The notes beneath the pieces were generated by a model. That model had not been told where the DNA came from, did not search any database, and saw only the letters and a list, made by a program, of their open reading frames with translations. The translations under genes were made by a program, and so were the position numbers. From NCBI GenBank assembly GCA_021780675.1, contig JAJXYH010000034.1, forward strand, positions 19,889 through 83,888: 64,000 nt of DNA. Direction: 5' to 3'. The number at the start of each line of letters is the position of its first letter. Position 1 is the first letter of the stretch. The stretch is from a bacterium. GTDB taxonomy: Bacteria; Patescibacteriota; Microgenomatia; Levybacterales; UBA12049. Positions 13,659 through 58,334 of this stretch are shown one piece after another.

Positions 13659-14093
13659 ATGGCAAATAATTTTATTTCTAGTAAAGGCAAAAGAAAAGAA
13701 GCGGTTGCCAGGGTAAGACTTTATCGGGATCTTAAAGAAATTCTGATGATGGGGGAAAAGACCGTTAAAAAGGGTGAGATATTTGTAAATGGTGATTTAA
13801 TCGAAAACTATTTTAGAGGTATCGTTTCTAAAGCGCATTATGAAGAACCCTTTAAAATTACCAATACTCAAGGAAAATATACAGTTACTGCTGTTGTTGA
13901 AGGCGGAGGAAACAAAAGTCAGTTAGATGCATTTATTCACGGTGTTTCAAGAGCCTTGGCAAGCATTGATGATAAAAGTAAATCAATCTTAAAGAAAAAA
14001 GGCTTTTTAACAAGAGATTCAAGGATTAGACAGAGAAGAAAAGTCGGAATGGGTGGAAAATCAAGAAGAAAGAAACAAAGTCCGAAGAGGTAA
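13659..14093 (+). CDS. rpsI: 30S ribosomal protein S9
   Basis: GKRKEAVARVRL... and a C-terminal RRKKQSPKR-type tail. Confidence 0.9.
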   Translation: MANNFISSKGKRKEAVARVRLYRDLKEILMMGEKTVKKGEIFVNGDLIENYFRGIVSKAHYEEPFKITNTQGKYTVTAVVEGGGNKSQLDAFIHGVSRALASIDDKSKSILKKKGFLTRDSRIRQRRKVGMGGKSRRKKQSPKR

Positions 14094-14121: not shown

Positions 14122-14664
14122 TTAGAGGTACTTCTTTTTAATAGCCACTTTTACCCACGGAGCGAGATTTTCATAGATTATCCCTTTTTTATTTATTAAA
14201 TCTTCCTTTTTAACTAAAGAAAAACCGTAGGCGAAATCAAGGTTTGGCATGGTTAATTTTTTTAATTTTATTACTACAACATCATTCATTTCGTGTTCTG
14301 TATAAATGCTTTTTTTATCCTTTGCTTTGTAATAAATAGTTCCTAGAATTTTAGGTTTTCCTAAAAAATCTTTAGGTGTTAAGTTCCACTCTCTTTTTAA
14401 GCAACTTAAAGTTGCTTCAATTGTTGGTTGCAGTTTATCATTTACAAATAATTGATGAGATGAAGAAGTTAAGTCGTAAAGACCATCAAAAGCGGGATGT
14501 TTTCGGTGCTGCAAAATATATTGTCCGTTATAAATTAAGGTTACAGTTAGAGCTTTATGTAAAATTCCTTTTCGGTGAGCTTCCCACTTTTCAACCCTAC
14601 CGATAATTTTCCCTTTTCGGTTAACTTTGGCAATTATTTGTTGTTGCTTATAATAATTATTCAT
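14122..14664 (-). CDS. type-1 isopentenyl-diphosphate isomerase-like protein (Nudix fold), catalytic Cys position = Ser
   Basis: It aligns with the E. coli Idi metal ligands H25, H32, H69, E114, E116 and with W161. The motif SVCGHP is replaced by TSSSHQ. Confidence 0.55.
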   Translation of the reverse strand: MNNYYKQQQIIAKVNRKGKIIGRVEKWEAHRKGILHKALTVTLIYNGQYILQHRKHPAFDGLYDLTSSSHQLFVNDKLQPTIEATLSCLKREWNLTPKDFLGKPKILGTIYYKAKDKKSIYTEHEMNDVVVIKLKKLTMPNLDFAYGFSLVKKEDLINKKGIIYENLAPWVKVAIKKKYL

Positions 14665-14734
14665 TGGTTTGCCTTTTAATGCTGAAACTATTATAATGCA
14701 TAGGCTTATAATAATCTACTACCGGTAGATTATT

Positions 14735-15514
14735 TTGTTTATGAAAAGCATTATTTTTATTAAGCTTGGTGGATCCGTTATTACAGATAAAAAAATTCCC
14801 TATAAAGCCGATACTGAGAACATCAGACGGTTTGCCAAAGAGCTTAAGGCTTATAAAGGCGGTATGGTTTTGGCACACGGAAGCGGAAGTTTTGCTCACG
14901 TTTCAGCTAGTAAATATGGTGGTAAAAAAGGGTACAAGAGCTTAAAAGGTATTGCAAAAGTTGCAAGAGATGCAATGGATATTAACAGAATAGTTATGGA
15001 TATTTTGGTGGAAGAAGGATTACCGGTTATTTCCTTTAGGGCAAACAGCTTGATGATCGCTTTAAATGGTAAACTGAATAAAGATTTATTTGATGCAGCA
15101 GAACTTGCTTTAAGTCAAGGTTTAATCCCGGTTTTTTATGGAGACGTAATTTGGGATAAAAAATGGAACAGCACAATATTTTCGGGAGAAAAAATATTAG
15201 ATTATTTTTGTAAATATTTGCTTAAGAAAAAATATAAAATTGAAAAGATAATACAAGCGTCCAATACCAACGGGATTTATGACAACAATGGGAATACGAT
15301 CCCAATAATAACAAAACAAAATTTTGTAAAAATTAAAAAATATGTTTTTAATTCGGAAAATGTAGATGTTACGGGTGGGATGTTACATAAAGTAATAAAT
15401 GCTATGGGTGTTTTAGATTTTGGGATCAGTACTAATATAATAAACGGGAATGTGAAAGGTGAATTAAAAAAAGCAATAAATGGGAAAATAACAGGAGGGA
15501 CCTTAATTAAATGA
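14735..15514 (+). CDS. isopentenyl phosphate kinase (amino-acid-kinase family)
   Basis: IFIKLGGSVITDK and LAHGSGSFAHV match the archaeal IPK signature (IKIGGS, HGGGSFGH). GDVIWDK and DVTGGM motifs are also present. Confidence 0.75.
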   Translation: MFMKSIIFIKLGGSVITDKKIPYKADTENIRRFAKELKAYKGGMVLAHGSGSFAHVSASKYGGKKGYKSLKGIAKVARDAMDINRIVMDILVEEGLPVISFRANSLMIALNGKLNKDLFDAAELALSQGLIPVFYGDVIWDKKWNSTIFSGEKILDYFCKYLLKKKYKIEKIIQASNTNGIYDNNGNTIPIITKQNFVKIKKYVFNSENVDVTGGMLHKVINAMGVLDFGISTNIINGNVKGELKKAINGKITGGTLIK

Positions 15515-16206
15515 CACCGGAAATAGAAATTAATCCAGAGGCAAAAGAAACGGTTATATTTACAAGTAAAGAGACGAAAAATATTCAAAGTGCAGGAATT
15601 GCAGTACTAATACTTGGAATAGATCCATATAGAAACGGCGATAATAGTTCTGATCCATTATTATGGACAATTAAAGAGCTGAAAGAGAAGCCAAGCACAA
15701 TGAAAAAGGCGGGGGAGATTTCAATTCCTGCAGAGACAAGAAAAATCGGTGAAATAAGATCAGATAATATTTTAGGTGCATTAGCAGAATTTTGTGATGA
15801 TACGAACCTAAAATATATTAAAAAACATCTTTTTTTAAAACCGGGTTCTTTTGGAGAAAGAGTGATAAATGTAAGTGGTAATTTGGTGGATTTAACAGCA
15901 TTAATTTATGATGGCGATTTAAGCTTGCCTATTACTCCCGTTAACTTTTCCGAGGTTAGTCCAAACGGATGGTTAAAAGTCAGTCAGATAAGAAATTTTA
16001 ATGACATCAGACCCATTTTAAGCCAGGCACTGGAAAAGGATTTGGAAATTGGTTTAAGTAAGGACATATTTGATACATATTTAAATGGAAAAGATGAATT
16101 GGCACCTGTTTTTGAAGATGATTTTAGTTCAATAGCGGATTTTTACAGAAACAGAGAGACGTTATCGGATATTCCTTTATTAAGTAGAACTACTTCAGGT
16201 AATTAA
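15511..16206 (+). CDS. hypothetical protein, translationally coupled to IPK (ATGA overlap)
   Basis: 231-aa ORF with no recognisable family. Its start overlaps the IPK stop by 4 nt. Confidence 0.4.
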   Translation: MTPEIEINPEAKETVIFTSKETKNIQSAGIAVLILGIDPYRNGDNSSDPLLWTIKELKEKPSTMKKAGEISIPAETRKIGEIRSDNILGALAEFCDDTNLKYIKKHLFLKPGSFGERVINVSGNLVDLTALIYDGDLSLPITPVNFSEVSPNGWLKVSQIRNFNDIRPILSQALEKDLEIGLSKDIFDTYLNGKDELAPVFEDDFSSIADFYRNRETLSDIPLLSRTTSGN

Positions 16207-17267
16207 CTTTGCCGTTTTTCCAATTTGTTTACAAGTTCGATTATTTGTTTTTTATATTCGTTTCCGATATTTGTTTTTTCTACAATTTTTTTTGCCTTTT
16301 CTATATTTTCTTTTATAACTTTTTCTCCTGCACAGATTGCCCGGGATTTTATAAAAAGCGCTTTTATTTGTTTTCTTTTTGTGTCATTTAGTTTTTTACC
16401 AAAAACACTTATTAGTTCTTTTTTTTCTTCAGCCTTTCCGTATTCGAAAATATAATTTGTAAAAAATGTTGGTTCACTCTGAGAAACATCTTCTAAAATG
16501 TTTTTATGTAAAAGTTTTGGATCTCCCATAATATCCAGGTAATCATCCTGTATTTGGAAAGTCATGCCAATTATGGTGCCAAAATCCTTTGTAAACTTAT
16601 CAAAACCGTTGTTAAGGCTTGCTAGATATGCTCCCATTTGCATTGGTCTAATAAAACTATAATAAGCGGTTTTAAGTAGGGTTTTTTCATCAATTAATTT
16701 AAGGTCCGGTTCGTTTTGTGTTGTTAGATCTATATCAATCATTTGTCCTAAGATTACTTCGTCAAGTGTTTTATAAAAAATTTCTTTTACCTGTAGAAGA
16801 TTTTCAGAAGGAAAGTCTTTGTTTAAGTCAATTAACTTACAAGTCCAGGCGAAAAGTAGATCTCCAAGCAGGACAGCTTGAGAATCTGCGACGTGAGATA
16901 GGTCACCTTTTCTGCCCAATGTCTTTAATCTGTTATATACAAATTCATGAGCGGTAGTTGTATCATGTCTTAGTTTGGCTTTATCCATAAAATCATCATG
17001 AATAAGTAAAAACATATGAAAAACCTCCAAGCTTACAAAGAATTTAATCGCTTTTTCATCCTTTTCTCCACCGCTAGCTTTATACATGCAATATGCAATA
17101 TATGGTCTTACTCTTTTTCCTGCATGCATTACTAATTCTTTTCCATGCAGAGATAAATCTTTTACTAAGGGGCCGGAATAATTTTGTAAATATTCACCAA
17201 TTCTTTCATCCAGGAATTCTTCAAGCATTGGATCAAAAATATTTTTAAATTCTTTTAATGAGTACAT
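16203..17267 (-). CDS. trans-polyprenyl diphosphate synthase (FPP/GGPP synthase family)
   Basis: Two aspartate-rich motifs: LLIHDDFMD and FQIQDDYLDIMGD. 354 aa. Confidence 0.85.
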   Translation of the reverse strand: MYSLKEFKNIFDPMLEEFLDERIGEYLQNYSGPLVKDLSLHGKELVMHAGKRVRPYIAYCMYKASGGEKDEKAIKFFVSLEVFHMFLLIHDDFMDKAKLRHDTTTAHEFVYNRLKTLGRKGDLSHVADSQAVLLGDLLFAWTCKLIDLNKDFPSENLLQVKEIFYKTLDEVILGQMIDIDLTTQNEPDLKLIDEKTLLKTAYYSFIRPMQMGAYLASLNNGFDKFTKDFGTIIGMTFQIQDDYLDIMGDPKLLHKNILEDVSQSEPTFFTNYIFEYGKAEEKKELISVFGKKLNDTKRKQIKALFIKSRAICAGEKVIKENIEKAKKIVEKTNIGNEYKKQIIELVNKLEKRQS

Positions 17268-17327: not shown

Positions 17328-17861
17328 ATGGAAACAAATCTTGACGGAGTTTTTACAATTAATTTACCAACGTACGAAGATAATAGGGGATTTTTTAGAG
17401 AAGTTTTGAAATTTAGTGGTATAAATGAACAATTGGGAAAAAGTTTTATTCCAAAACAAATAAATCATGCAAGATCTGTTAAGAATACTTTAAGAGGAAT
17501 TCACGTTGCTCCATGGAATAAAATTATTTATGTTACAAAAGGAAAAGTTCAGGTGGTGCTTGTTGACTCTAGAAAAGATTCTAAAACTTTAGGGAAGCAC
17601 CAGTCTTTTATTTTAGGAGATGATAATAGAATCGCGGTTTTTGTTCCGGCTAATTTTGGAAATTCTTACCTTGTATTAAGTGAGACGGCAGATTATATGT
17701 ATGTTACGGATGAGGAATGGAGTCCGAATAAAGAACTTAATGTTTTTTGGAACGATAAAGATTTAAATATAAATTGGCAACTTAACGGGCAGCCTTTTCT
17801 TTCCGAGAGGGATAGTACAGCCTTTTCTTTTTCTTCGCTTTTCCCTGATTTTAAGAAATAG
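17328..17861 (+). CDS. dTDP-4-dehydrorhamnose 3,5-epimerase-like cupin
   Basis: EDNRGFFREV and RGIHVAP motifs (RmlC-like); 177 aa. Confidence 0.6.
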   Translation: METNLDGVFTINLPTYEDNRGFFREVLKFSGINEQLGKSFIPKQINHARSVKNTLRGIHVAPWNKIIYVTKGKVQVVLVDSRKDSKTLGKHQSFILGDDNRIAVFVPANFGNSYLVLSETADYMYVTDEEWSPNKELNVFWNDKDLNINWQLNGQPFLSERDSTAFSFSSLFPDFKK

Positions 17862-17909: not shown

Positions 17910-18296
17910 ATGGCAAAAAGAAGCGAAGAGGCGCAAAGAGAGCATGATTTAATTGTAAATAATTCTTTAAAATCATGGATTGATAGAGGCGATGTTAAAG
18001 CGTTTGCAAACCCCGGCGATGAGCACAATTTTTCGGTTGCAGGAATTTATTACCCGGATATTGTAGTTTTAGATCCCAATAATAATTTTTATCTGATAGA
18101 GGAGGTAGAAACAGAAGATACTGTAAACGAGCAGGAGCTTGAGGAGTGGAAGCAGTTTGCCGGTTTTGGTGTAACTTTAAATTTAATCGTCCCCGAAAAC
18201 AAAAGAGAAGATGCCCAAAACTTAGTTAAAGAAATTTCCAATATTAGAGTTCAGACCTACACACTTAAAGATGGAAAATTGGAATTTCAGGTTTAA
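17910..18296 (+). CDS. hypothetical acidic protein
   Basis: 128-aa ORF with no confident family assignment. Confidence 0.35.
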   Translation: MAKRSEEAQREHDLIVNNSLKSWIDRGDVKAFANPGDEHNFSVAGIYYPDIVVLDPNNNFYLIEEVETEDTVNEQELEEWKQFAGFGVTLNLIVPENKREDAQNLVKEISNIRVQTYTLKDGKLEFQV

Positions 18297-18304
18297 ATTT
18301 TAAG

Positions 18305-18375
18305 TCGGGGTGCCAGGAATTGAACCTGGCCCACACGCACCCCATGCGCGCATTCTACCGATAAACTACACCCCG
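18305..18375 (-). tRNA. tRNA-Pro (anticodon GGG)
   Basis: The reverse complement folds as a cloverleaf: acceptor CGGGGTG/CACCCCG, T-arm CCAGG-TTCAATT-CCTGG, anticodon stem CGCGC/GCGTG with loop ATGGGGT, discriminator A. CCA is not encoded. Confidence 0.8.
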
Positions 18376-50811: not shown

Positions 50812-52491
50812 ATGTTACTGTCCAACGAACAGGTTAAAAATCTGTTGTTACATTCTGGTCAGGTAAGTCAGGAGACGCTTACAAGCTTAGAAGAATTTGC
50901 TAAGAATGCAAGAACCCCCTTGCAGGAAGCTGCAATAGAAAAAGATGTAATTTCCGATGAGAACTTAGGTATTTTGGTTGCAAATTTTCTTAAATTCCCT
51001 TTTATATATTTGGCAAAAACCGCAATCCCCGAAAATATATTTTCAATAATTCCTGAGAGGATTGCCCGAAAGTTTAAACTGGTTGCTTTTGCAAAAACAG
51101 CAGGTGGAATTCTTTTGGCAATGGTAGATCCTACAAATAAGGAACTTATAGAAATGATTTCTAAAAAAACAGGTCTTAAAGTTATTCCTTATTATGCAAC
51201 GGGAAGAGACATCGAAAACACACTACAACTTTATAGAAAAGATTTGCAGCAGACTTTTGATGATCTATTAAAGAGGGAAGTTGGGGAAAATGTCGAAGCC
51301 CAGGATGCGCCGATTGCCAAAATGGTTGATCTTCTTATTACTTACGCTTACAGGGATAAAGCATCGGATATTCATATTGAGCCGGAAGAAAATGATTTGT
51401 TGGTAAGGTTTAGAATAGACGGAATTTTGCATGACATGTTGTATTTGGACAAAAAACTAACAGAAAGAATTTTAACCCGCATCAAAATTTTATCAAGGCT
51501 TAGAACAGATGAGCATTTAAGTGCACAAGACGGAAAAATTAGGATGATGGTCGATGACGATAATTTGGATCTTCGTGTTTCAATAGTTCCGATTGCAGAA
51601 GGAGAAAAAGCAGTAATGCGTTTACTTTCTTCTCATTTTAGAGCTTCATCGCTTTTGGATTTAGGAATGAGAGAAGAAGATTTTAAAAAGGTGAATAATG
51701 CTATAAATAAATCTTACGGAATGATTCTGGCAACAGGACCAACCGGTTCGGGTAAAACCACCAGTATTTATTCTATTCTTAAAATATTAAATACCAGAGA
51801 AAAAAATATTACAACAATTGAGGATCCTATTGAATACCGCATGAAAGGCGTTAATCAAATTCAAGTTAATTCCAAAACTAATTTAACTTTTGCAAATGGA
51901 CTAAGAAGTATTTTGCGTCAGGATCCTAATGTAATTTTTGTAGGAGAAATTAGAGATGACGAAACAGCAGAAATTGCCGTAAACGCAGCATTAACGGGCC
52001 ATTTAGTCGTTTCTACACTTCACACCAACGATGCCGCAACTGCGCTTCCAAGACTTGTTGATATGAAAGTAGAGCCATTTTTAGTTGCATCAACAGTTAA
52101 TGTTATTATTGCCCAAAGGTTGGTTAGAAGAATATGTGAATCTTGTAAGGCGCAGGTGTATATTAAAAAGGAGGATCTTTTAAAAAATATTCCTCAGGAT
52201 TTAATAGAAAAACATTTTCAAGGTGGAGATGAAATTCCGGTTTCTCAAGGAAAAGGTTGTAAGCTTTGCCACCATACAGGTTATTTGGGAAGAATCGGAA
52301 TTTATGAAGTTTTGCAAATGTCAGAATCGATTAGGAAAATGGTTGTTGATAAAAAAGATTCGGATGTAATTACGGAAGAAGCGATAAAAGAGGGAATGAC
52401 AACCATGCAGGAAGATGGTGTTGATAAAATTGCAAAAGGGTTTACAACGCTTGAAGAAGTACTAAGGGTAACAAAGGTGGAAAGAGCATGA
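50812..52491 (+). CDS. pilB: type IV pilus assembly ATPase PilB/GspE
   Basis: N-terminal GSPII_N-like domain, Walker A GPTGSGKTT, and a C-terminal tetracysteine motif CESC...CKLCHHTGYLGRIGIYEV. Confidence 0.9.
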   Translation: MLLSNEQVKNLLLHSGQVSQETLTSLEEFAKNARTPLQEAAIEKDVISDENLGILVANFLKFPFIYLAKTAIPENIFSIIPERIARKFKLVAFAKTAGGILLAMVDPTNKELIEMISKKTGLKVIPYYATGRDIENTLQLYRKDLQQTFDDLLKREVGENVEAQDAPIAKMVDLLITYAYRDKASDIHIEPEENDLLVRFRIDGILHDMLYLDKKLTERILTRIKILSRLRTDEHLSAQDGKIRMMVDDDNLDLRVSIVPIAEGEKAVMRLLSSHFRASSLLDLGMREEDFKKVNNAINKSYGMILATGPTGSGKTTSIYSILKILNTREKNITTIEDPIEYRMKGVNQIQVNSKTNLTFANGLRSILRQDPNVIFVGEIRDDETAEIAVNAALTGHLVVSTLHTNDAATALPRLVDMKVEPFLVASTVNVIIAQRLVRRICESCKAQVYIKKEDLLKNIPQDLIEKHFQGGDEIPVSQGKGCKLCHHTGYLGRIGIYEVLQMSESIRKMVVDKKDSDVITEEAIKEGMTTMQEDGVDKIAKGFTTLEEVLRVTKVERA

Positions 52492-53543
52492 AACCAAACA
52501 ATATAAAAATATCAAATAACGAAAAATTAAGTTTTTATAGCACAATGTCGACGATGATTTCTGCCGGAATCCCAATACTGGAAGTAATAGATTCGATATT
52601 AGAGGATTCTAAGGGGAACACAAAAAAAATTGTACTTTCAATCAGAGAAGATTTAATTCAAGGAAAGTCACTTTCTGCAGCATTTTCTAAATTTCCAACC
52701 ACTTTTAATAAAGTTACGGTAAATGTTGTAAGGGCTGCGGAAGAAGCAGGTACGTTAGAAGTTGTACTAAAGGATTTAAAAGATCAACTTCAAAAAGACA
52801 TGGAATTTATGGATAATGTAAAATCTGCGGTTACTTATCCAACAATCATTTTCTTTCTGTTTTTGGCAGTTATGGTATTAATATTGGTTGTTGTTATGCC
52901 TAAGATTGCAACGGTTTTTACCTCTCTTAAAGTAGACCTTCCACTTCCAACCAGAATTTTAATTTTTATGTCGAATATTTTAATTAATAATACGGTGCCA
53001 TTTATTATGGGACTTTTGAGTATCTTTTTAGGAATTTATCTTTTGTTTAAATTTAAAAAATCAATAATTATTAATATTTTATTTTCACTTCCGATTGTTT
53101 CTAAATTAGTTAAAGAGATTGATTTGGTAAGGTTTTCAAGAAGCATGTATCTTTTACTTAGTTCAGGAATCACGATCACCGCTGCTTTAACTTTGGCAGA
53201 AGAAATAGTAATTAAAAAGGACATAAGTAGGGTAATTTTACAGGCGCAGGATATAGTCCAATCAGGGAAAAAGCTATCAGAAGCATTTAAAGGTAAAAAG
53301 ACTGCTTTTCCGGTAATTGTAGTGAAGATTATCGAAGCCGGAGAAAGAACGGGTACTTTAGATAAGTCGATGCAAGAAATTGGTGAGTTTATGGATTATC
53401 AGGTTAATTCGACTCTTAAAACATTAGTTTCTCTACTTGAGCCTTTAATGTTAATTTTTGTAGGTGTATTGGTTGGAGGAATGATGATGTCGATTATTGC
53501 CCCAATTTACGGACTTATTAGTACAATCGGTAGCCAAAAATGA
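52488..53543 (+). CDS. pilC: type IV pilus platform protein PilC/GspF
   Basis: 351 aa with GspF-type repeats and three TM segments. Its start overlaps the pilB stop. Confidence 0.8.
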   Translation: MKPNNIKISNNEKLSFYSTMSTMISAGIPILEVIDSILEDSKGNTKKIVLSIREDLIQGKSLSAAFSKFPTTFNKVTVNVVRAAEEAGTLEVVLKDLKDQLQKDMEFMDNVKSAVTYPTIIFFLFLAVMVLILVVVMPKIATVFTSLKVDLPLPTRILIFMSNILINNTVPFIMGLLSIFLGIYLLFKFKKSIIINILFSLPIVSKLVKEIDLVRFSRSMYLLLSSGITITAALTLAEEIVIKKDISRVILQAQDIVQSGKKLSEAFKGKKTAFPVIVVKIIEAGERTGTLDKSMQEIGEFMDYQVNSTLKTLVSLLEPLMLIFVGVLVGGMMMSIIAPIYGLISTIGSQK

Positions 53544-54019
53544 AAATAAATAATAACGCAGGATTTACCCTTATTGAGTTAATCGTAGTAATAATAATAG
53601 TATCTTCACTTTTGGGATTATTGGTTTTTAATTTAGTTGGAACACAAAGAAACACGGAGATTAGCTCTCAGACAGACATTATTGTTTCGGATTTGTCTTC
53701 GCAGCAAAATAAAGCAATGCTTGGTGCCGGAGGTTCAAGCGGAAATGATTACGGAATTCATTTTGAATCAAATCAATACACTTTGTTTGAGGGTAGTACA
53801 TATAATCCTGCCGATTCCGGCAATTTTGTAGTAAATCTTGATTCGGGGTATCAACTAACAAGCACATTTCCTTTTGGAGACATAGTATTTGATTCAATAA
53901 CCGGAACTGTGAGCGGATTTTTAAATGGGAATAATACGGTGACGTTGCAAGAGATAAATGGAGGAAAGTCAAAAACAGTTACTATTAATAAATATGGTGT
54001 GGTTACGGGAGAAAATTAA
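53540..54019 (+). CDS. prepilin-type N-terminal methylation domain protein (minor pilin)
   Basis: GFTLIELIVVIIIV class III signal/helix. Confidence 0.75.
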   Translation: MKINNNAGFTLIELIVVIIIVSSLLGLLVFNLVGTQRNTEISSQTDIIVSDLSSQQNKAMLGAGGSSGNDYGIHFESNQYTLFEGSTYNPADSGNFVVNLDSGYQLTSTFPFGDIVFDSITGTVSGFLNGNNTVTLQEINGGKSKTVTINKYGVVTGEN

Positions 54020-55990
54020 ATGAAAAATATTTTCAAAAACTCAGGTCAAACTTTGGTTGAACTATTAATAACAATTGGACTTGCGGCAATTTTACTTCCT
54101 GCTCTTTTAGGTGCGTTTTCGATAACCAGAAGCGGAAGAGCCCAGATGGACCAAAGAATTAAAGCAATCGCTTTTTTGCAAGAGGGTGAGGAATCGCTTC
54201 GTGTAATAAGAGCAAATGATTGGACTAATTTGGCAGATGGAACTTTTCATCCTGTTGCAACTGCAACCACTTGGACTTTGGCTCCAAATGCAGAAAATCT
54301 AGGAGACTTTACAAGACAAATTGTAATTTCGGATATTTACCGCGATGCAAACGGAAATATTGCAACTACAGGGGGGGTTTTAGATCCATCAACTAAACAA
54401 GTAACGGTTACTGTTTCTTGGAATAATCCACTTACAGGGTCGGTTACAGATGTATCTTATTTAACAAGACACAAGAATATTGCCGAGGTTCAAACAACAG
54501 TTACTGATTTTTCTACGGGCACATTTGTAAATACTGCGGCGGTTAGTACGGTTGGCAGTAGTCTTCCAAATGATGGGCAGGTTCAACTAGGCGCCGGAGG
54601 AGGAGCTAATGGAGGAGACTGGTGTAAACCTTCGCAATACATTTTAAAAACTTATGATTTACCTGGACAAGGGGTTGCACAAAATTTGTCTGCTACATCA
54701 ACTGCAACACAAAACGTTGCTTATACAACAACCGGAGGGAATGCATCTGGTGATGCTGTTGATGGTTTAACTGTTTCGTTTGCAAATCCGCCCGCTGTTA
54801 ATCCCTCTGCATCAAATAATGAGGCTAAAGCATATGGAATTTTTGTTGATGCCGGCGGAAACTATGTTTATTTTAATGAAAATAATCCGCCTAACCATTT
54901 AGTGCAAATTGTAAATGCCAGTAATTTGATCGATGTAGGAACTTTGGATGTGAGCGGAAAAACAGGCAGCAGCGTTTATGCTTTGGGGAATTACGCTTTT
55001 GTTGTTTCTGGAAATACTTTATATAGTTTTAATGTAACAAGTAAAATCGGTTCACATTCACCGGTAAGTTCTGTCGCATTAGCGGGAAACGGCAAAAGGG
55101 TAATGGTGGTTGAAAGTAATGTATATGTTGCTACCGATAGCACAAATAGTCAATTGCAAATAATTCCTTATAATTTGAATACCGGTGTTTTGGGAAATCC
55201 AACAAGCATAAATTTAAACAATAACTTAGCCGGTGTTGACGCATTTGTTAATAGTAGTGCAAGTTTTGCTTATGTGGTAACAGCCTCGTCTTCCGGAATA
55301 AACAATTTTTATATTGTTGACTTGAATAATACAAATAATAAATATGGATATGCAACTCTTGGCTTAAGTCCAAAAGGGATTACCGTTGTTCCCAGGAATA
55401 GGGCGATTATTGTTGGAACAGGTAATACAAAATATGAAGTTTTTGATACCACAATTCCAAGTGCTGCAAGCTATTGTGGAGGAATGAGTCCAACTGGTGT
55501 TAATTCAATAAATGCGGTTGCATCTGTTGCTCAGCCAGACGGAAGGGTATTTTCTTATATTCTTACCGATAATTCATCTGCAGAGTTTCAAATAGTTTTA
55601 GGAGGTCCCGGAAGCGGTAATTTTGCAACTTCGGGAACTTACACTTCTGCTCCTATTGCCCTAGCTAATGCATCAAATTTTAATTATTTTAGTGCGGATG
55701 TTAGCCAGCCGGCCAGTACGCATATTGCAATTCAAGTCGCTACGGCAAATTCCGTAGGAGGCTCATGCGCATCGGCACAATACGTATATGTTGGTCCTGA
55801 TGGGACGACCGGAACATACTTTACGCCGGTTGGGAATGTAATTTCAGGACAAATTCCGATTACAAGCCCTACAACTCCTGCAAATTATCAAAATCCGGGA
55901 GAATGTTTTAGTTATCAGGTAACGATTACATCAAGTGACCAAACCCTAACACCTGTTTTAAATGATATTTCAATAAATTATTCGCCATGA
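54020..55990 (+). CDS. large pilin-like protein (656 aa) with prepilin-type N-terminus
   Basis: MKNIFKNSGQTLVELLITIGLAAILL followed by a Ser/Thr/Gly/Asn-rich domain of about 600 aa. Confidence 0.65.
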   Translation: MKNIFKNSGQTLVELLITIGLAAILLPALLGAFSITRSGRAQMDQRIKAIAFLQEGEESLRVIRANDWTNLADGTFHPVATATTWTLAPNAENLGDFTRQIVISDIYRDANGNIATTGGVLDPSTKQVTVTVSWNNPLTGSVTDVSYLTRHKNIAEVQTTVTDFSTGTFVNTAAVSTVGSSLPNDGQVQLGAGGGANGGDWCKPSQYILKTYDLPGQGVAQNLSATSTATQNVAYTTTGGNASGDAVDGLTVSFANPPAVNPSASNNEAKAYGIFVDAGGNYVYFNENNPPNHLVQIVNASNLIDVGTLDVSGKTGSSVYALGNYAFVVSGNTLYSFNVTSKIGSHSPVSSVALAGNGKRVMVVESNVYVATDSTNSQLQIIPYNLNTGVLGNPTSINLNNNLAGVDAFVNSSASFAYVVTASSSGINNFYIVDLNNTNNKYGYATLGLSPKGITVVPRNRAIIVGTGNTKYEVFDTTIPSAASYCGGMSPTGVNSINAVASVAQPDGRVFSYILTDNSSAEFQIVLGGPGSGNFATSGTYTSAPIALANASNFNYFSADVSQPASTHIAIQVATANSVGGSCASAQYVYVGPDGTTGTYFTPVGNVISGQIPITSPTTPANYQNPGECFSYQVTITSSDQTLTPVLNDISINYSP

Positions 55991-56523
55991 TAAGACTAAT
56001 TTTAAATTTTAAAAATTCTGTTTTACAAAAAAATAAAGGTTTTACTCTTATTGAAATTCTTATATTCATGGGAATATTCTCGATTTTAATTACCGTAATG
56101 CTTCAGCTGTTTACCGCAATCTTTGATAATCAACTTGAATCACAAAGTACGACAGCTGTTTCTACGGATAGCAGATATATAGAAAATAAGTTAACAGCAG
56201 ATATTAAAAATGCTACATCATCTTCTATATTAAGCCCTGCAATAGGAGCATCTTCTTCTGCGCTAAGTATTTCTAATGGTTCGTCAACATACACATATAG
56301 TCTGTCCGGAAATAATCTGGTAGTAAATGAGCAACCGGCCGGAACTACGGATCAACTTAATAGTGTAAATACGAAAGTATCATCACTTAATTTTTTTAGG
56401 TTAGCAGATAATTCAGGACAAGATATAAGCACAATTACTGTGAGTTTTACATTAACAAGTGGAACAATTAAAAGAAGCGGGGCAGTTAGCGAAGATTTTA
56501 ATTTTACAGCAGGAACGCGTTAA
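55987..56523 (+). CDS. prepilin-type minor pilin
   Basis: KGFTLIEILIFMGIFSILI N-terminus. Confidence 0.7.
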   Translation: MIRLILNFKNSVLQKNKGFTLIEILIFMGIFSILITVMLQLFTAIFDNQLESQSTTAVSTDSRYIENKLTADIKNATSSSILSPAIGASSSALSISNGSSTYTYSLSGNNLVVNEQPAGTTDQLNSVNTKVSSLNFFRLADNSGQDISTITVSFTLTSGTIKRSGAVSEDFNFTAGTR

Positions 56524-56527
56524 TAAT

Positions 56528-56920
56528 ATGTTTAAATTAATTAAAAATAAATCAGGTCAAGCACTGGTTACATTATTATTTATATCTGTAATTGGTGTTA
56601 CCGTTATAACTGCTGCAGCTATTCTAATATTTCAAAATATTCAAAGCTCAAGTATTGTAGAACAGGGTACACAGGCTTATTATATTGCAGAAAGTGGAAT
56701 AGAAGAGGGAGTTTTAAGAATGCTTAGAAATCCTGGCTACAGCGGAACGTCCCCCGGGCAACCACTTGATGTTGACGGTGGTAGCGTGGTAATTTCTACG
56801 GCAAGCGGCGGGATAATCAGCGCAACGGGAACTTACCATGACACGTCAAGGACAATACAAGTTAAAACAGTGTACAATAATGGTGAACTAACCATTAGTT
56901 CATGGAAGGAGATAAAATAA
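56528..56920 (+). CDS. prepilin-type minor pilin (PilX-like)
   Basis: MFKLIKNKSGQALVTLLFISVIGV. The ATG at 56528 is preferred to the overlapping track start. Confidence 0.6.
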   Translation: MFKLIKNKSGQALVTLLFISVIGVTVITAAAILIFQNIQSSSIVEQGTQAYYIAESGIEEGVLRMLRNPGYSGTSPGQPLDVDGGSVVISTASGGIISATGTYHDTSRTIQVKTVYNNGELTISSWKEIK

Positions 56921-57730
56921 ATGAGTAAAAGAATTAACGCAATACTTTTTGTTGATAGTAATAGGTTATTATTTTATTCTAAAGGTGCAACTGCTACGTA
57001 TCAGATTAAGCTAAATCCCGATATATTTGTGGATTTGGAGGTTATTAACAGAGAAAAATTTGAACATTTAATTGACAATTTTTTTCAAGTACCAAGTATA
57101 AAGGGTAAGGAATTTGATATTACGATTATTTTCTCTCAGCGTACTACGTTTGAAACCGAATTAACCAGTGCAAATTCTAAGGCAGAATTTGAAGAAACCC
57201 AGCGTTTTTTAGATATGGTTCCATTTGAAGAGGTTTTAAATAATTCATACCGAATAAACAAAAAGACAAAAATTGTGGCTATAAATAAAATTTTATATAA
57301 TATTTTAAAATTAGCACTTGAGAAGAATAAGGCACATGTAGTGGTATTATTGCCGATGGGAGTATTAGCTACTGCAAATTCGGAGTTGGCCAGCAAAATT
57401 GATTTTCCTTTAATTGAAAGTAAATTAGAGTCTTTTATGCAATATAGCATAGTTGATTTGGGGGAAATGGGACTTGGTGGCGAGGTTCCAAACGCAATAG
57501 GAATAAAAAGAAAAGATGTGAGACTTTATATTTTAGTTATAGTTTTGATTGGGCTATTTGCCGTATTGATATTTTTAATTTATACAACCTTTATTGCACC
57601 TCCTAAGAGGGTTCAATCTGTAAATACTTTTCATACTTCGACAGCAACTAGTCGTGATCAAAATACTAAATCTTTTAATGCAACAGATTCCGCACAAATT
57701 TCTACTCCGAGTTCACAACTCTCCAAATAA
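56921..57730 (+). CDS. putative pilus assembly protein (PilM/PilN-like; single TM near the C-terminus)
   Basis: 269 aa embedded between the pilin genes, with a TM helix at about residue 205-228. It has no strong motif. Confidence 0.35.
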   Translation: MSKRINAILFVDSNRLLFYSKGATATYQIKLNPDIFVDLEVINREKFEHLIDNFFQVPSIKGKEFDITIIFSQRTTFETELTSANSKAEFEETQRFLDMVPFEEVLNNSYRINKKTKIVAINKILYNILKLALEKNKAHVVVLLPMGVLATANSELASKIDFPLIESKLESFMQYSIVDLGEMGLGGEVPNAIGIKRKDVRLYILVIVLIGLFAVLIFLIYTTFIAPPKRVQSVNTFHTSTATSRDQNTKSFNATDSAQISTPSSQLSK

Positions 57731-57818
57731 TTAAAATTATTTTACCCATAAATTTAATTTAGCCTTAAAATACCCCCTTGACAAAGTATTTTTTTCTATG
57801 CTAATGTTGATATAGAAC

Positions 57819-58334
57819 ATGAAAAGACTGCCCAACATTAAAAACGTAAAAGGTTTTACCCTCATCGAACTTTTAGTTGTAATCGGAATTTTAGCAATTT
57901 TACTTTCAATCGTTTTAATCGCAATTAATCCTGCCAGACAATTTGGTCAAGCAAACAATACTAGAAGAAGGAGTGATGTCACTCAAATTCTTAATGCAAT
58001 CGGAGCTTATGCAGCAGATAATAAAGGAGTACTACCAATAGGAATTCCGGTAGGTACAGCTTCTGCGGTATTTATTTCTGGATCGACAGCTACACCACCA
58101 ACGGGATTTGCGTCAGCACCAGTAGCCGGATATGCAGATTTGTGCTCAGAATTAGTTCCAAATTATATTCCTGCATTACCACAAGATCCTCAAGCTTATG
58201 CAGGAACATCAGTTACAAATTGTAGTGATACAACCTACTTTACAGGCTATACAGTATCACAAGATGCAAATCATAGAGTAACAGTATCCGCACCAAACGC
58301 AGAGAATAACGAGATCATTAGTAACACTCGCTAG
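57819..58334 (+). CDS. type IV major pilin (PilA-like)
   Basis: KGFTLIELLVVIGILAILLSIVLIAINP followed by a pilin-like globular domain. It has its own TTGACA-containing upstream region. Confidence 0.8.
   Translation: MKRLPNIKNVKGFTLIELLVVIGILAILLSIVLIAINPARQFGQANNTRRRSDVTQILNAIGAYAADNKGVLPIGIPVGTASAVFISGSTATPPTGFASAPVAGYADLCSELVPNYIPALPQDPQAYAGTSVTNCSDTTYFTGYTVSQDANHRVTVSAPNAENNEIISNTR

What the first reader, a model, noticed from the sequence alone, without database searches (positions are those of the whole stretch)
14122..17267. Compact isoprenoid module: IPP-isomerase-like gene with Cys to Ser at the catalytic position, isopentenyl phosphate kinase, a coupled unknown gene, and a polyprenyl synthase
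The minus-strand 180-aa protein aligns residue-for-residue with the type-1 IDI ligands (E. coli H25, H32, H69, E114, E116, W161). The catalytic Cys67 of SVCGHP is Ser here (TSSSHQ). Next to it is a clear archaeal-type isopentenyl phosphate kinase with the GGS and HGSGSF signatures. A 231-aa unknown ORF is translationally coupled to the kinase by an ATGA overlap. A DDxxD polyprenyl synthase converges on the pair. An isopentenyl phosphate kinase implies a modified or alternative mevalonate route, or isopentenyl phosphate salvage. The Cys-less IDI homolog and the coupled unknown gene are candidates for non-canonical steps.
Basis: partly seen in the sequence, partly recalled or inferred. Interest (0 to 1): 0.65.

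Follow-up and report, generated by a model that had tools for sequence, protein, structure and literature searches.

The report
Cys-less IDI, IPK and Nudix partner
A tiny-genome (CPR/Levybacteria-like) bacterium carries a conserved isoprenoid-building gene cluster whose isomerase lacks the usual catalytic cysteine and whose isopentenyl phosphate kinase is always paired with a previously unnamed Nudix-fold protein, which gives concrete handles on the unexplained role of this kinase in these bacteria.

Summary
All four genes are at the stated coordinates. The ATGA overlap and both DDxxD motifs are real. The 180-aa protein matches E. coli IDI at every metal, diphosphate and acid ligand, with Ser68 in place of Cys67.

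The interpretation needs three corrections.
1. IPK/IDI-1/prenyl-synthase synteny in CPR Microgenomates was published in 2018, where the IPK was called enigmatic.
2. Ser is invariant only in the close family (121/121, all four TCN codons). Sister-clade proteins have Ala or Val, and a remoter one Ile, at that position. The family is therefore Cys-less rather than Ser-catalytic. Human IDI2, its best PDB match, also has Ser there. Canonical Cys-IDIs fill the same genomic slot in sister genomes.
3. The 231-aa "unknown" is a divergent Nudix-fold protein (AF2 pLDDT 86.7; only Nudix hits) with a degenerate Nudix box. Its family has 176 clusters at 50% identity. It sits directly downstream of IPK in 19 of 23 loci, lies inside a mevalonate cluster in one distant lineage, and is fused to IspH in one protein.

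Best reading: a C5 isoprenoid end-game locus made of three modules, a Cys-less isomerase, an IPK plus Nudix-fold pair handling the IP/IPP pool, and an FPP/GGPP synthase. The biochemistry is untested. This is a new variant of a known kind, of moderate interest.

The parts
14122..14664 (-). Cys-less type-1 IDI-like protein (180 aa). Ser68 sits at the Cys67 position; all metal, diphosphate, Glu/Tyr acid and Trp residues are retained.
14669..14697 (+). Sigma-70-like promoter TTGCCT-N17-TATAAT for the IPK/Nudix bicistron. Much of the -35 hexamer and the extended ATTATAAT -10 block are conserved in six related loci.
14741..15514 (+). Isopentenyl phosphate kinase, archaeal type (257 aa from the conserved ATG; the mechanical ORF starts at TTG 14735).
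15494..15514 (+). Translational coupling signal: AGGAGG Shine-Dalgarno inside the IPK 3' end, and an ATGA stop/start overlap at 15511-15514.
15511..16206 (+). Divergent Nudix-fold protein (231 aa, acidic, degenerate Nudix box, helical C-terminal lid). It belongs to an unnamed family tied to IPK, IspH and mevalonate genes.
16203..17267 (-). Short-chain trans-prenyl diphosphate synthase (FPP/GGPP type), convergent with the Nudix-fold gene; the stop codons overlap.

Best explanation
This is the conserved C5-isoprenoid end-game locus of a Levybacteria-like (Microgenomates, CPR) bacterium. It lies between the rpsI end of the ribosomal/rpoA operon and recA, and is built from three separable modules.

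(1) Isomerase. A strongly conserved, highly divergent type-1 IDI. It keeps the Zn/Mn site, the Mg-diphosphate site, the Glu-Tyr proton donor and the carbocation-stabilising Trp, but has lost the Cys base. Inferred: it still interconverts IPP and DMAPP using a different base (a water molecule or another residue), as Ser-bearing mammalian IDI2 does.

(2) Kinase pair. A bicistronic, translationally coupled operon with its own conserved promoter. It encodes isopentenyl phosphate kinase (IP + ATP -> IPP) and a Nudix-fold partner. Inferred, low confidence: the partner binds the Mg-diphosphate of IPP/DMAPP or a related pathway diphosphate, and most likely hydrolyses it to the monophosphate. Together with IPK it would then set or recycle the IP/IPP pool, a prokaryotic counterpart of the plant IPK/Nudix pair.

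(3) Synthase. A short-chain trans-prenyl diphosphate synthase that condenses the C5 units to FPP/GGPP, ultimately for undecaprenyl-phosphate carrier lipid.

Shown: gene identities, residue conservation, Nudix fold, synteny, one fusion. Inferred: every catalytic activity.
For: Isomerase module:
- Only IDI models and IDI structures match.
- All ligand residues are invariant across Cys-less and canonical sequences.
- The protein is 53-67% identical across loci where S9 is 55-71% identical, so it is under purifying selection.
- It sits in operons with UppS, trans-IPPS and IspH in other genomes.
- Canonical Cys-IDIs that pass the NF002995 cutoff occupy the same slot after rpsI in L004, L021 and L024. 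One follows IPK-Nudix in L035.
- IDI2, which has Ser at this position, is needed for DMAPP-derived isoprene in humans.

Kinase module:
- IPK passes its NCBIfam cutoff and matches solved IPKs.

Nudix-fold partner:
- AF2 pLDDT is 86.7 and every Foldseek PDB hit is Nudix.
- The only sub-threshold sequence hits are Nudix proteins.
- E75, E81, E93, K78, E148, W154, R167, R215 and D220 are conserved at 93% or more in 101 diverse members, as expected of a metal/phosphate site.
- IPK is directly upstream in 19 of 23 loci, down to 23% identity.
- The pair is present or absent together at the locus.
- A distant member lies between IPK, MVK and MVD genes.
- One member is fused to IspH.

Precedent: the plant IPK/Nudix pair.
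Against: - The IDI-like protein fails the curated IDI cutoffs by a wide margin (34.6 vs 105.8 bits).
- The Cys position holds Ser, Ala, Val or Ile in different clades, so there is no obvious replacement base. From my own recollection of the Poulter-lab mutagenesis, Cys-to-Ala/Ser mutants of canonical IDI are nearly dead.
- The Nudix box is degenerate. It has no Arg, and at most two or three of the four Glu, depending on register. That pattern is typical of non-hydrolytic Nudix proteins.
- A hydrolase coupled to the kinase that reverses it would be a futile cycle.
- 3 of 23 loci have the Nudix-fold gene without IPK.
- No source of IP is identified. The window has no MVA or MEP gene.
Confidence: 0.55

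Rival explanations
1. The Cys-less IDI-like protein is no longer an isomerase. It keeps the IPP/DMAPP binding and protonation machinery but does something else: hydration of the double bond, another carbocation-quenching reaction, diphosphate hydrolysis, or ligand sensing.
For: - The base position holds chemically inert Ala, Val or Ile in sister clades.
- The score is far below the IDI equivalog cutoffs.
- Some relatives sit next to IspH, which already makes both IPP and DMAPP, so an isomerase would be dispensable there.
Against: - The acid, metal and Trp residues are fully conserved.
- It is the only IDI-type gene in these isoprenoid operons, and canonical IDI replaces it in the same slot.
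- IDI2 has Ser and is functional in vivo.
Confidence: 0.25
2. The 231-aa Nudix-fold protein is a non-catalytic ligand-binding partner. It would sense IPP/DMAPP or a prenyl diphosphate and regulate IPK (or IspH in the fusion), as NrtR, NUDT9H and CFIm25 use a degenerate Nudix domain for binding only.
For: - The Nudix box is degenerate.
- NrtR and AraR Nudix domains are among the top structural hits.
- 1:1 translational coupling to IPK.
- Fusion to IspH.
- This reading avoids a futile cycle.
Against: - Three invariant Glu, plus Lys, two Arg and an Asp conserved across members that share only 22-44% identity with the window protein, look like a catalytic metal site.
- The protein is acidic (pI 4.75; C-terminal domain 4.3), so it is not a DNA-binding NrtR-type regulator.
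Confidence: 0.3
3. The Nudix-fold protein catalyses a new step that produces isopentenyl phosphate (or DMAP) from an as yet unknown precursor, for example a nucleotide-linked or diphosphate-linked C5 compound or a scavenged host metabolite. IPK would then complete a two-step salvage route that is the main IPP source in these reduced genomes.
For: - The pair is gained and lost together and always lies in one tight operon.
- CPR that lack most MVA genes still keep IPK-IDI.
- No MVA or MEP gene lies in the window.
Against: - No candidate substrate is known.
- The gene order is kinase first.
- A distant member lies within a full-looking MVK/MVD/IPK cluster where no extra step is needed.
Confidence: 0.12
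4. The 231-aa gene is functionally unrelated to isoprenoid metabolism and merely hitch-hikes in a conserved syntenic block next to the ribosomal protein operon.
For: - The whole rpsI-to-recA block is syntenic in Levybacteria.
- In three loci it lies after cysS or without IPK.
Against: The IPK linkage persists outside the rpsI-recA block and at 23-28% identity (L006, L032, L034, L035). An IspH fusion also exists.
Confidence: 0.04

Closest known systems
Type-1 isopentenyl-diphosphate isomerase (E. coli Idi; human IDI1, PDB 2dho/2icj)
   Same: Same fold and length. The residues for the His3Glu2 metal site, Mg/diphosphate binding (K21, R51, E87), the Glu116/Tyr104 acid and Trp161 are identical. 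It has the same genomic company (IPPS, UppS, IspH, IPK).
   Different: The catalytic Cys67 is absent: Ser here, Ala/Val/Ile in relatives. Only about 20% identity. It scores 34.6 bits against a 105.8-bit family cutoff, with no PF00293 hit.
Human IDI2 (PDB 2pny)
   Same: It is the best solved-structure match to the family profile (E=1.2e-12). It carries Ser at the same position (DSCSSHP vs LTSSSHQ). It supports DMAPP formation in vivo (PMC10542801).
   Different: IDI2 keeps a Cys immediately before that Ser. It is a recent paralogue of a Cys enzyme. The CPR family has no Cys in the motif and tolerates Ala or Val.
CPR (Microgenomates) mevalonate/IPK gene sets described by Hoshino & Gaucher 2018 (PMC6107057)
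   Same: IPK of archaeal type in Microgenomates, typically syntenic with IDI-I, and MVA genes syntenic with the cis-IPPS gene. The function of IPK is called enigmatic.
   Different: That paper mentions neither the loss of the catalytic Cys nor any Nudix-fold or hypothetical gene coupled to IPK. The terms 'Nudix' and 'cysteine' do not occur in it.
Plant IPK / Nudix hydrolase pair (AtIPK with AtNUDX1/3; Henry et al. 2015, 2018, as summarised in PMC8248349)
   Same: An IPK working with a Nudix-superfamily protein on the IP/DMAP <-> IPP/DMAPP balance. This is the only known system that pairs these two protein types.
   Different: The plant Nudix enzymes are canonical Nudix-box hydrolases encoded at unlinked loci. 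Here the partner has a degenerate box and a C-terminal helical domain, is operon-coupled, and its activity is untested.
Non-hydrolytic or regulatory Nudix domains (NrtR 3gz8, AraR 5bs6)
   Same: Similar size (about 230 aa: Nudix domain plus C-terminal domain), a degenerate Nudix box, and a place among the top Foldseek hits.
   Different: The C-terminal domain here is strongly acidic (pI 4.3) and not a winged helix-turn-helix by composition. Its conserved Glu/Lys/Arg set suggests a metal-phosphate site.

Membership tests
Type-1 IPP isomerase (TIGR02150 / NF002995) | Scores above the curated family cutoff | tested here: not met
   34.6 bits vs 105.8, and 33 vs 127. Canonical neighbours L004 and L035 pass with 185 and 232 bits.
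Type-1 IPP isomerase (TIGR02150 / NF002995) | Metal ligands His25, His32, His69, Glu114, Glu116 (E. coli numbering) | tested here: met
   H30, H36, H70, E123 and E125 are invariant in 121 homologues and in the 13-sequence alignment with E. coli Idi.
Type-1 IPP isomerase (TIGR02150 / NF002995) | Catalytic Cys67 thiol opposite Glu116 | tested here: not met
   Ser68 here (121/121 close homologues). Val/Ala in L005, L010, L011 and L031; Ile in L034.
Type-1 IPP isomerase (TIGR02150 / NF002995) | Glu116/Tyr104 proton donor, Trp161, and diphosphate-binding Lys21, Arg51, Glu87 | tested here: met
   E125, Y112, W170, K26, R54 and E92 are aligned and conserved.
Type-1 IPP isomerase (TIGR02150 / NF002995) | IPP<->DMAPP isomerase activity | not testable with these tools
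   Needs an enzyme assay or complementation.
Isopentenyl phosphate kinase (NF040647, AA_kinase fold) | Scores above the curated cutoff; best structural relatives are IPKs | tested here: met
   187.3 bits vs cutoff 120. The top six of eight PDB hits are named IPK (E 2e-29 to 4e-25); the other two are an IPK homologue deposited as a gamma-glutamyl kinase-related protein (3lkk, E 7e-18) and FomA (E 4e-8).
Isopentenyl phosphate kinase (NF040647, AA_kinase fold) | N-terminal K-x-GGS glycine loop and catalytic His in the HGxGSF motif | tested here: met
   IKLGGSVITDK and LAHGSGSFAH in the translation. They align to the solved IPK 7lnt.
Nudix hydrolase superfamily (PF00293) | Nudix alpha/beta/alpha fold | tested here: met
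   AF2 model pLDDT 86.7. All significant Foldseek PDB hits are Nudix proteins, probability 0.97-1.0 among the top 30 and target-normalised TM (TMt) up to 0.64. The long-form model gives the same result.
Nudix hydrolase superfamily (PF00293) | Nudix box GX5EX7REUXEEXGU | tested here: not met
   The sequence reads E75-x5-E81-x7-G-A-L-A-E93-F, or A-E93-F-C-D-D in the alternative register. There is no Arg, and only 2-3 acidic positions are kept.
Nudix hydrolase superfamily (PF00293) | Significant Pfam/NCBIfam match | tested here: not met
   No hit for the window protein. 9 of 101 family members match PF00293 weakly, best E=2.9e-4.
Trans-prenyl diphosphate synthase (PF00348) | Pfam match plus first and second Asp-rich DDxxD motifs | tested here: met
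   E=2.5e-45. DDFMD and DDYLD in the translation. PDB relatives are GGPP/FPP synthases.
Plant-type IPK/Nudix IP-IPP regulatory pair | The Nudix partner hydrolyses IPP/DMAPP to IP/DMAP | not testable with these tools
   Only the genomic coupling is shown. The activity is unknown.
NrtR/AraR Nudix-related transcription factors | Basic C-terminal winged-helix DNA-binding domain | tested here: not met
   C-terminal 70 residues have pI 4.3; the whole protein has pI 4.75.

The most novel reading that the evidence does not exclude
CPR Microgenomates run a non-canonical end of isoprenoid precursor synthesis. In this reading a large family of type-1 IDI homologues works without the thiol base, by a new isomerisation mechanism or a different reaction on the same carbocation. 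A new Nudix-fold enzyme family, physically and genetically tied to IPK (and in one case to IspH), would catalyse an undescribed step at the monophosphate/diphosphate level. That step would explain why these bacteria keep an 'archaeal' IPK.
Probability: 0.2. Interest if true: 0.78.

Novelty: new variant of a known kind. Interest (0 to 1): 0.55.

Why it matters
Why CPR bacteria keep an archaeal-type isopentenyl phosphate kinase was left open in the 2018 evolutionary study of the mevalonate pathway, where it bears on which pathway LUCA had. This locus supplies two testable handles.

1. A constant, translationally coupled Nudix-fold partner of IPK. It also turns up in a mevalonate cluster and fused to IspH. 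It is the obvious candidate for the missing context of that kinase, either as the source or regulator of IP, or as a bacterial analogue of the plant IPK/Nudix rheostat.

2. A large, well-conserved natural family of type-1 IDI homologues without the catalytic cysteine. This is a ready-made experiment on how far the protonation/deprotonation mechanism depends on that thiol. If the proteins are active, they could also be oxidation-insensitive isomerases for pathway engineering.

If both proteins turn out ordinary (a weak isomerase and a housekeeping hydrolase), the finding is a useful annotation fix for several hundred 'hypothetical proteins'.

Tried and rejected
- **Locus search with the broad alignment.** The search for related loci with A3 failed for lack of a conserved stretch. 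A1 was used instead and gave 5 loci from genomes and 16 from metagenomes.
- **The 170-aa C-terminal extension of long-form family members.** There is no Pfam hit. The AF2 model was only moderate (pLDDT 72.8). Foldseek returned only Nudix hits for the N-terminal domain. It gave no functional clue.
- **Is the 231-aa family a second IDI?** A profile-profile comparison of it (A3) with the IDI-like family (A2) found no relationship (probability 0.3%). That idea was dropped.
- **NrtR-like transcription factor reading.** Rejected because the protein and its C-terminal domain are strongly acidic.
- **Ser68 as a conserved catalytic substitute.** Rejected after finding Ala, Val and Ile at that position in related proteins.
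- **Cys127 (E. coli C118 equivalent) as a relocated base.** It is Cys in 112/121 homologues but Asn in this window's protein, so it is not essential.
- **Third homologue search.** The search with A3 added little: 36 proteins and no new fusions.
- **Literature.** Searches for explicit statements on the IDI2 Ser or on Cys67 mutants in open-access text found nothing direct. The mutant kinetics are therefore cited from memory only.
- **The 10-bp palindrome CTACCGGTAG (14719-14728) upstream of IPK.** It is not conserved in relatives.
- **Rfam.** No regulatory RNA was found.


Full report
**Source and setting.** The window is low-GC (about 33%). It encodes a ribosomal-protein/rpoA block, RecA, RecX and RNase Y. 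Identical genes lie on contigs of the MAG GCA_027353285.1. The closest named relatives of its proteins are Candidatus Levybacteria / Microgenomates, in the Patescibacteria (CPR). The finding lies between rpsI (13659-14093) and rmlC/recA.

**Observation check.** All four ORFs are present.

The minus-strand 180-aa protein (14122-14664):
- It has no Pfam hit, not even PF00293.
- Over its full length it matches only the two NCBIfam IDI models, TIGR02150 (E=1.6e-8, 34.6 bits, cutoff 105.8) and PRK03759 (E=4.3e-8).
- Its only PDB sequence matches are human IDI1 and IDI2. A profile of 35 family members raises these to E=1e-12.
- I fetched the real E. coli idi gene and aligned it. So are K26=K21, R54=R51, E92=E87 and Y112=Y104.
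- Ser68 aligns with Cys67.
- The Ser is not an error. It is Ser in all 121 close homologues from independent assemblies, and its codon is TCA, TCT, TCG or TCC in different loci.

The other three genes:
- The IPK passes its curated cutoff (NF040647, 187 vs 120 bits). Its best PDB matches are solved IPKs at E about 1e-29. The GGS and HGSGSF motifs are there. The conserved start is ATG 14741.
- The ATGA overlap (15511-15514) and an AGGAGG seventeen bases upstream of that start codon (15494-15499) are real.
- The prenyl synthase (PF00348, E=2.5e-45; DDFMD and DDYLD) converges on the 231-aa gene with overlapping stop codons. It resembles FPP/GGPP synthases.

**What was already known.** Hoshino & Gaucher (2018, PMC6107057) reported several points:
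- Most Microgenomates carry mevalonate-pathway genes plus an archaeal-type IPK.
- MVA genes in CPR typically cluster with the cis-IPPS (UppS-type) gene.
- The role of this IPK is unknown.

So the module as a gene set is not new. That paper mentions neither the catalytic cysteine nor a Nudix or hypothetical partner of IPK.

**The IDI-like protein is Cys-less, not Ser-catalytic.** In the close family the motif is T-S-S-S-H-Q with Ser68 invariant. The orthologues in loci L005, L010, L011 and L031 are 53-57% identical and sit in the same position after rpsI. They read D-L-S-S-[V/A]-S-H-Q, with Val or Ala at the Cys position. A remoter CPR IDI-like protein (L034) reads T-A-I-S-H-P, with Ile there.

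Across all of these plus three canonical IDIs, the invariant residues are H30, H36, R54, H70, A84, E92, Y112, E123, E125, N141 and W170. The binding and protonation apparatus is therefore under strict selection, while the base position carries no conserved functional group.

Three observations argue that the protein still serves as the isomerase:
1. It is as conserved as ribosomal protein S9 across these genomes.
2. In other genomes it is co-operonic with UppS, trans-IPPS or IspH (L015, L016, L017).
3. In sister genomes (L004/L025, L021, L024) the same slot after rpsI holds a canonical IDI with NSCCGHP and ENEICP that passes the NF002995 cutoff. In L035 a canonical IDI directly follows IPK and the Nudix-fold gene.

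The best solved relative, human IDI2, itself has Ser at this position (DSCSSHP). It is required for DMAPP-derived breath isoprene in humans (PMC10542801).

Against this, Cys139/Glu207 (yeast numbering) are regarded as the key proton-transfer pair (PMC5925831). As I recall, Cys-to-Ala/Ser mutants of canonical enzymes are nearly inactive. The mechanism, and even the reaction, remain open.

**The 'unknown' 231-aa ORF is a divergent Nudix-fold protein.**
- It has no Pfam, NCBIfam or PDB sequence match.
- An AF2 model built from 30 homologues is confident (pLDDT 86.7, pTM 0.83). All Foldseek PDB hits are Nudix proteins, including RenU, the NrtR Nudix domain, Ap4A hydrolase, NUDT5, NUDT15 and rose NUDX1 with GPP, at probability 0.97-1.0 among the top 30.
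- At sequence level, the only sub-threshold PDB hits of the family profile are Nudix proteins. PF00293 is the only Pfam family matched repeatedly, by 9 of 101 members.
- The exhaustive profile search found 176 clusters at 50% identity (126 at E<=1e-10), almost all 200-240 aa.
- Across 101 diverse members, E81 and E93 are invariant. E75, K78, E148, W154, R167, R215 and D220 are conserved at 93% or more, and T76 in 91 of 101.
- The Nudix box is degenerate. With canonical spacing it reads E75-x5-E81-x7-G-A-L-A-E93-F. In HMMER's alternative register, A-E93-F-C-D-D aligns to R-E-U-x-E-E. Either way the Arg and one or two Glu are missing.
- The protein is acidic (pI 4.75; C-terminal helical domain 4.3). 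This excludes an NrtR-type DNA-binding regulator.
- It is unrelated at profile level to the IDI-like family.

**Genomic linkage of the Nudix-fold family.** I collected loci by exact-protein lookup and by pattern scans of GTDB genomes and JGI metagenomes. Neighbours were annotated with tblastn and HMMs.
- In 19 of 23 distinct loci where the upstream DNA is available, an IPK gene lies immediately upstream on the same strand. It usually overlaps or is separated by 0-60 bp. This holds for members only 23-35% identical to the window protein (L006, L034, L035).
- The exceptions are L013/L026 and L027 (downstream of cysS) and L023 (IDI-like | Nudix-fold | IPPS with IPK missing). In L032/L033 an IPK is adjacent but divergent, and a second IPK lies 2 kb downstream.
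- L032 is a mevalonate cluster: IPPS, cis-prenyltransferase-like, IPK, the Nudix-fold gene, mevalonate kinase (TIGR00549, 200 bits, cutoff 163), diphosphomevalonate-decarboxylase-like (TIGR01240, 239 bits, cutoff 171) and a second IPK.
- One family representative (P0209, 531 aa) is a fusion of this domain to LytB/IspH. IspH is also adjacent in L006.
- At the rpsI-recA locus, IPK and the Nudix-fold gene are present together or absent together. They are absent in L015 and L017, which keep the Cys-less IDI.
- The pair occurs with Ser-type, Ala/Val-type, Ile-type and canonical Cys IDIs. The pair and the Cys-less isomerase are therefore independent modules.
- In the window the pair has its own promoter-like site, TTGCCT-N17-TATAAT (14669-14697). 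Much of the -35 hexamer and the extended -10 block (ATTATAAT) are conserved in six related loci.

**Mechanism, as far as it can be argued.**
- Shown: IPK identity, Nudix fold, conserved acidic/basic cluster, tight operon coupling, and association with IspH and MVA genes.
- Inferred: the Nudix-fold protein binds a Mg-diphosphate ligand of the C5 pathway.
- The only known system pairing IPK with a Nudix protein is the plant IP/IPP rheostat. There, Nudix hydrolases make IP/DMAP from IPP/DMAPP and IPK reverses this (PMC8248349). I take a bacterial analogue of that as the single most likely function, at about 0.3.
- A non-catalytic regulatory partner is about equally likely (0.3).
- An undescribed IP-forming step is less likely (0.12).
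- Whether this genome has a mevalonate or MEP pathway could not be determined. The 64-kb window has none of those genes, and no tool gives the rest of the genome.

**Verdict.** The cluster is a known kind of CPR isoprenoid locus with two undescribed variants inside it: a large Cys-less IDI-1 family, and a new Nudix-fold family dedicated to IPK. I rate it a new variant of a known kind, interest 0.55. There is a 0.2 chance that it hides new chemistry, which would merit about 0.78.

Noticed in passing
P0209 (531 aa; found by the profile search): A natural fusion of the 231-aa-family Nudix-fold domain (residues 3-195) to a complete LytB/IspH domain (219-503, PF02401 E=1e-65). It links the family to the last MEP-pathway enzyme.
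   Followed up: partly
L032:604-8141 (also L033): A distant member of the Nudix-fold family (28% identity) sits inside a mevalonate cluster holding two different IPK paralogues, a mevalonate kinase, an MVD-like decarboxylase, a canonical 135-aa NUDIX protein and a cytidylate-kinase-like gene.
   Followed up: partly
P0135, P0143, P0144, P0301, P0151, P0153, P0154, P0156, P0172 (alignment A5): About one in fifteen family representatives carries an extra C-terminal domain of about 170 aa ending in a conserved G-I-K-D-L-K-L-R-P-Y-D-A-Y-G-M tail. It has no Pfam or PDB match, and the AF2 model is only moderate.
   Followed up: partly
L030:871-1511 and L031:5001-5665: In two independent metagenome contigs the Nudix-fold gene matches in two overlapping reading frames, switching near residue 104-108. 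This is a shared frameshift: a pseudogene, an assembly error or recoding.
   Followed up: no
L034:5648-6190: An IDI-like protein (90 bits to NF002995, below cutoff) with the motif T-A-I-S-H-P, that is Ile at the catalytic Cys position. It lies downstream of IPK, the Nudix-fold gene and a DoxX-like gene.
   Followed up: partly
window 14284-14286 (codon for residue 127 of the IDI-like protein): The residue two after the second metal Glu is Cys in 112 of 121 homologues and in E. coli (C118). It is Asn in this window's protein.
   Followed up: partly
window 14719-14728: A perfect 10-bp palindrome, CTACCGGTAG, between the IPK promoter and start codon. It is not conserved in five related loci.
   Followed up: yes
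window 17910-18296 and 18304-18375: A 128-aa acidic ORF with no family (weak BsuBI/PstI-endonuclease-like hit, E=0.047) lies directly before a minus-strand tRNA-Pro(GGG). A lone rmlC (17328-17861) lies upstream, with no other rhamnose genes nearby.
   Followed up: no
L015:6953-8552: In a near-complete 818-kb Levybacteria contig the Cys-less IDI overlaps the end of an IspH-like gene by 14 bp, in a trans-IPPS -> IspH -> IDI operon. That IspH scores below the TIGR00216 cutoff (134 vs 188 bits).
   Followed up: partly
window 50812-58334: A type-IV-pilus-like cluster (T2SSE ATPase, T2SSF platform, several N-methyl pseudopilin genes and large unannotated ORFs), as often seen in CPR genomes.
   Followed up: no
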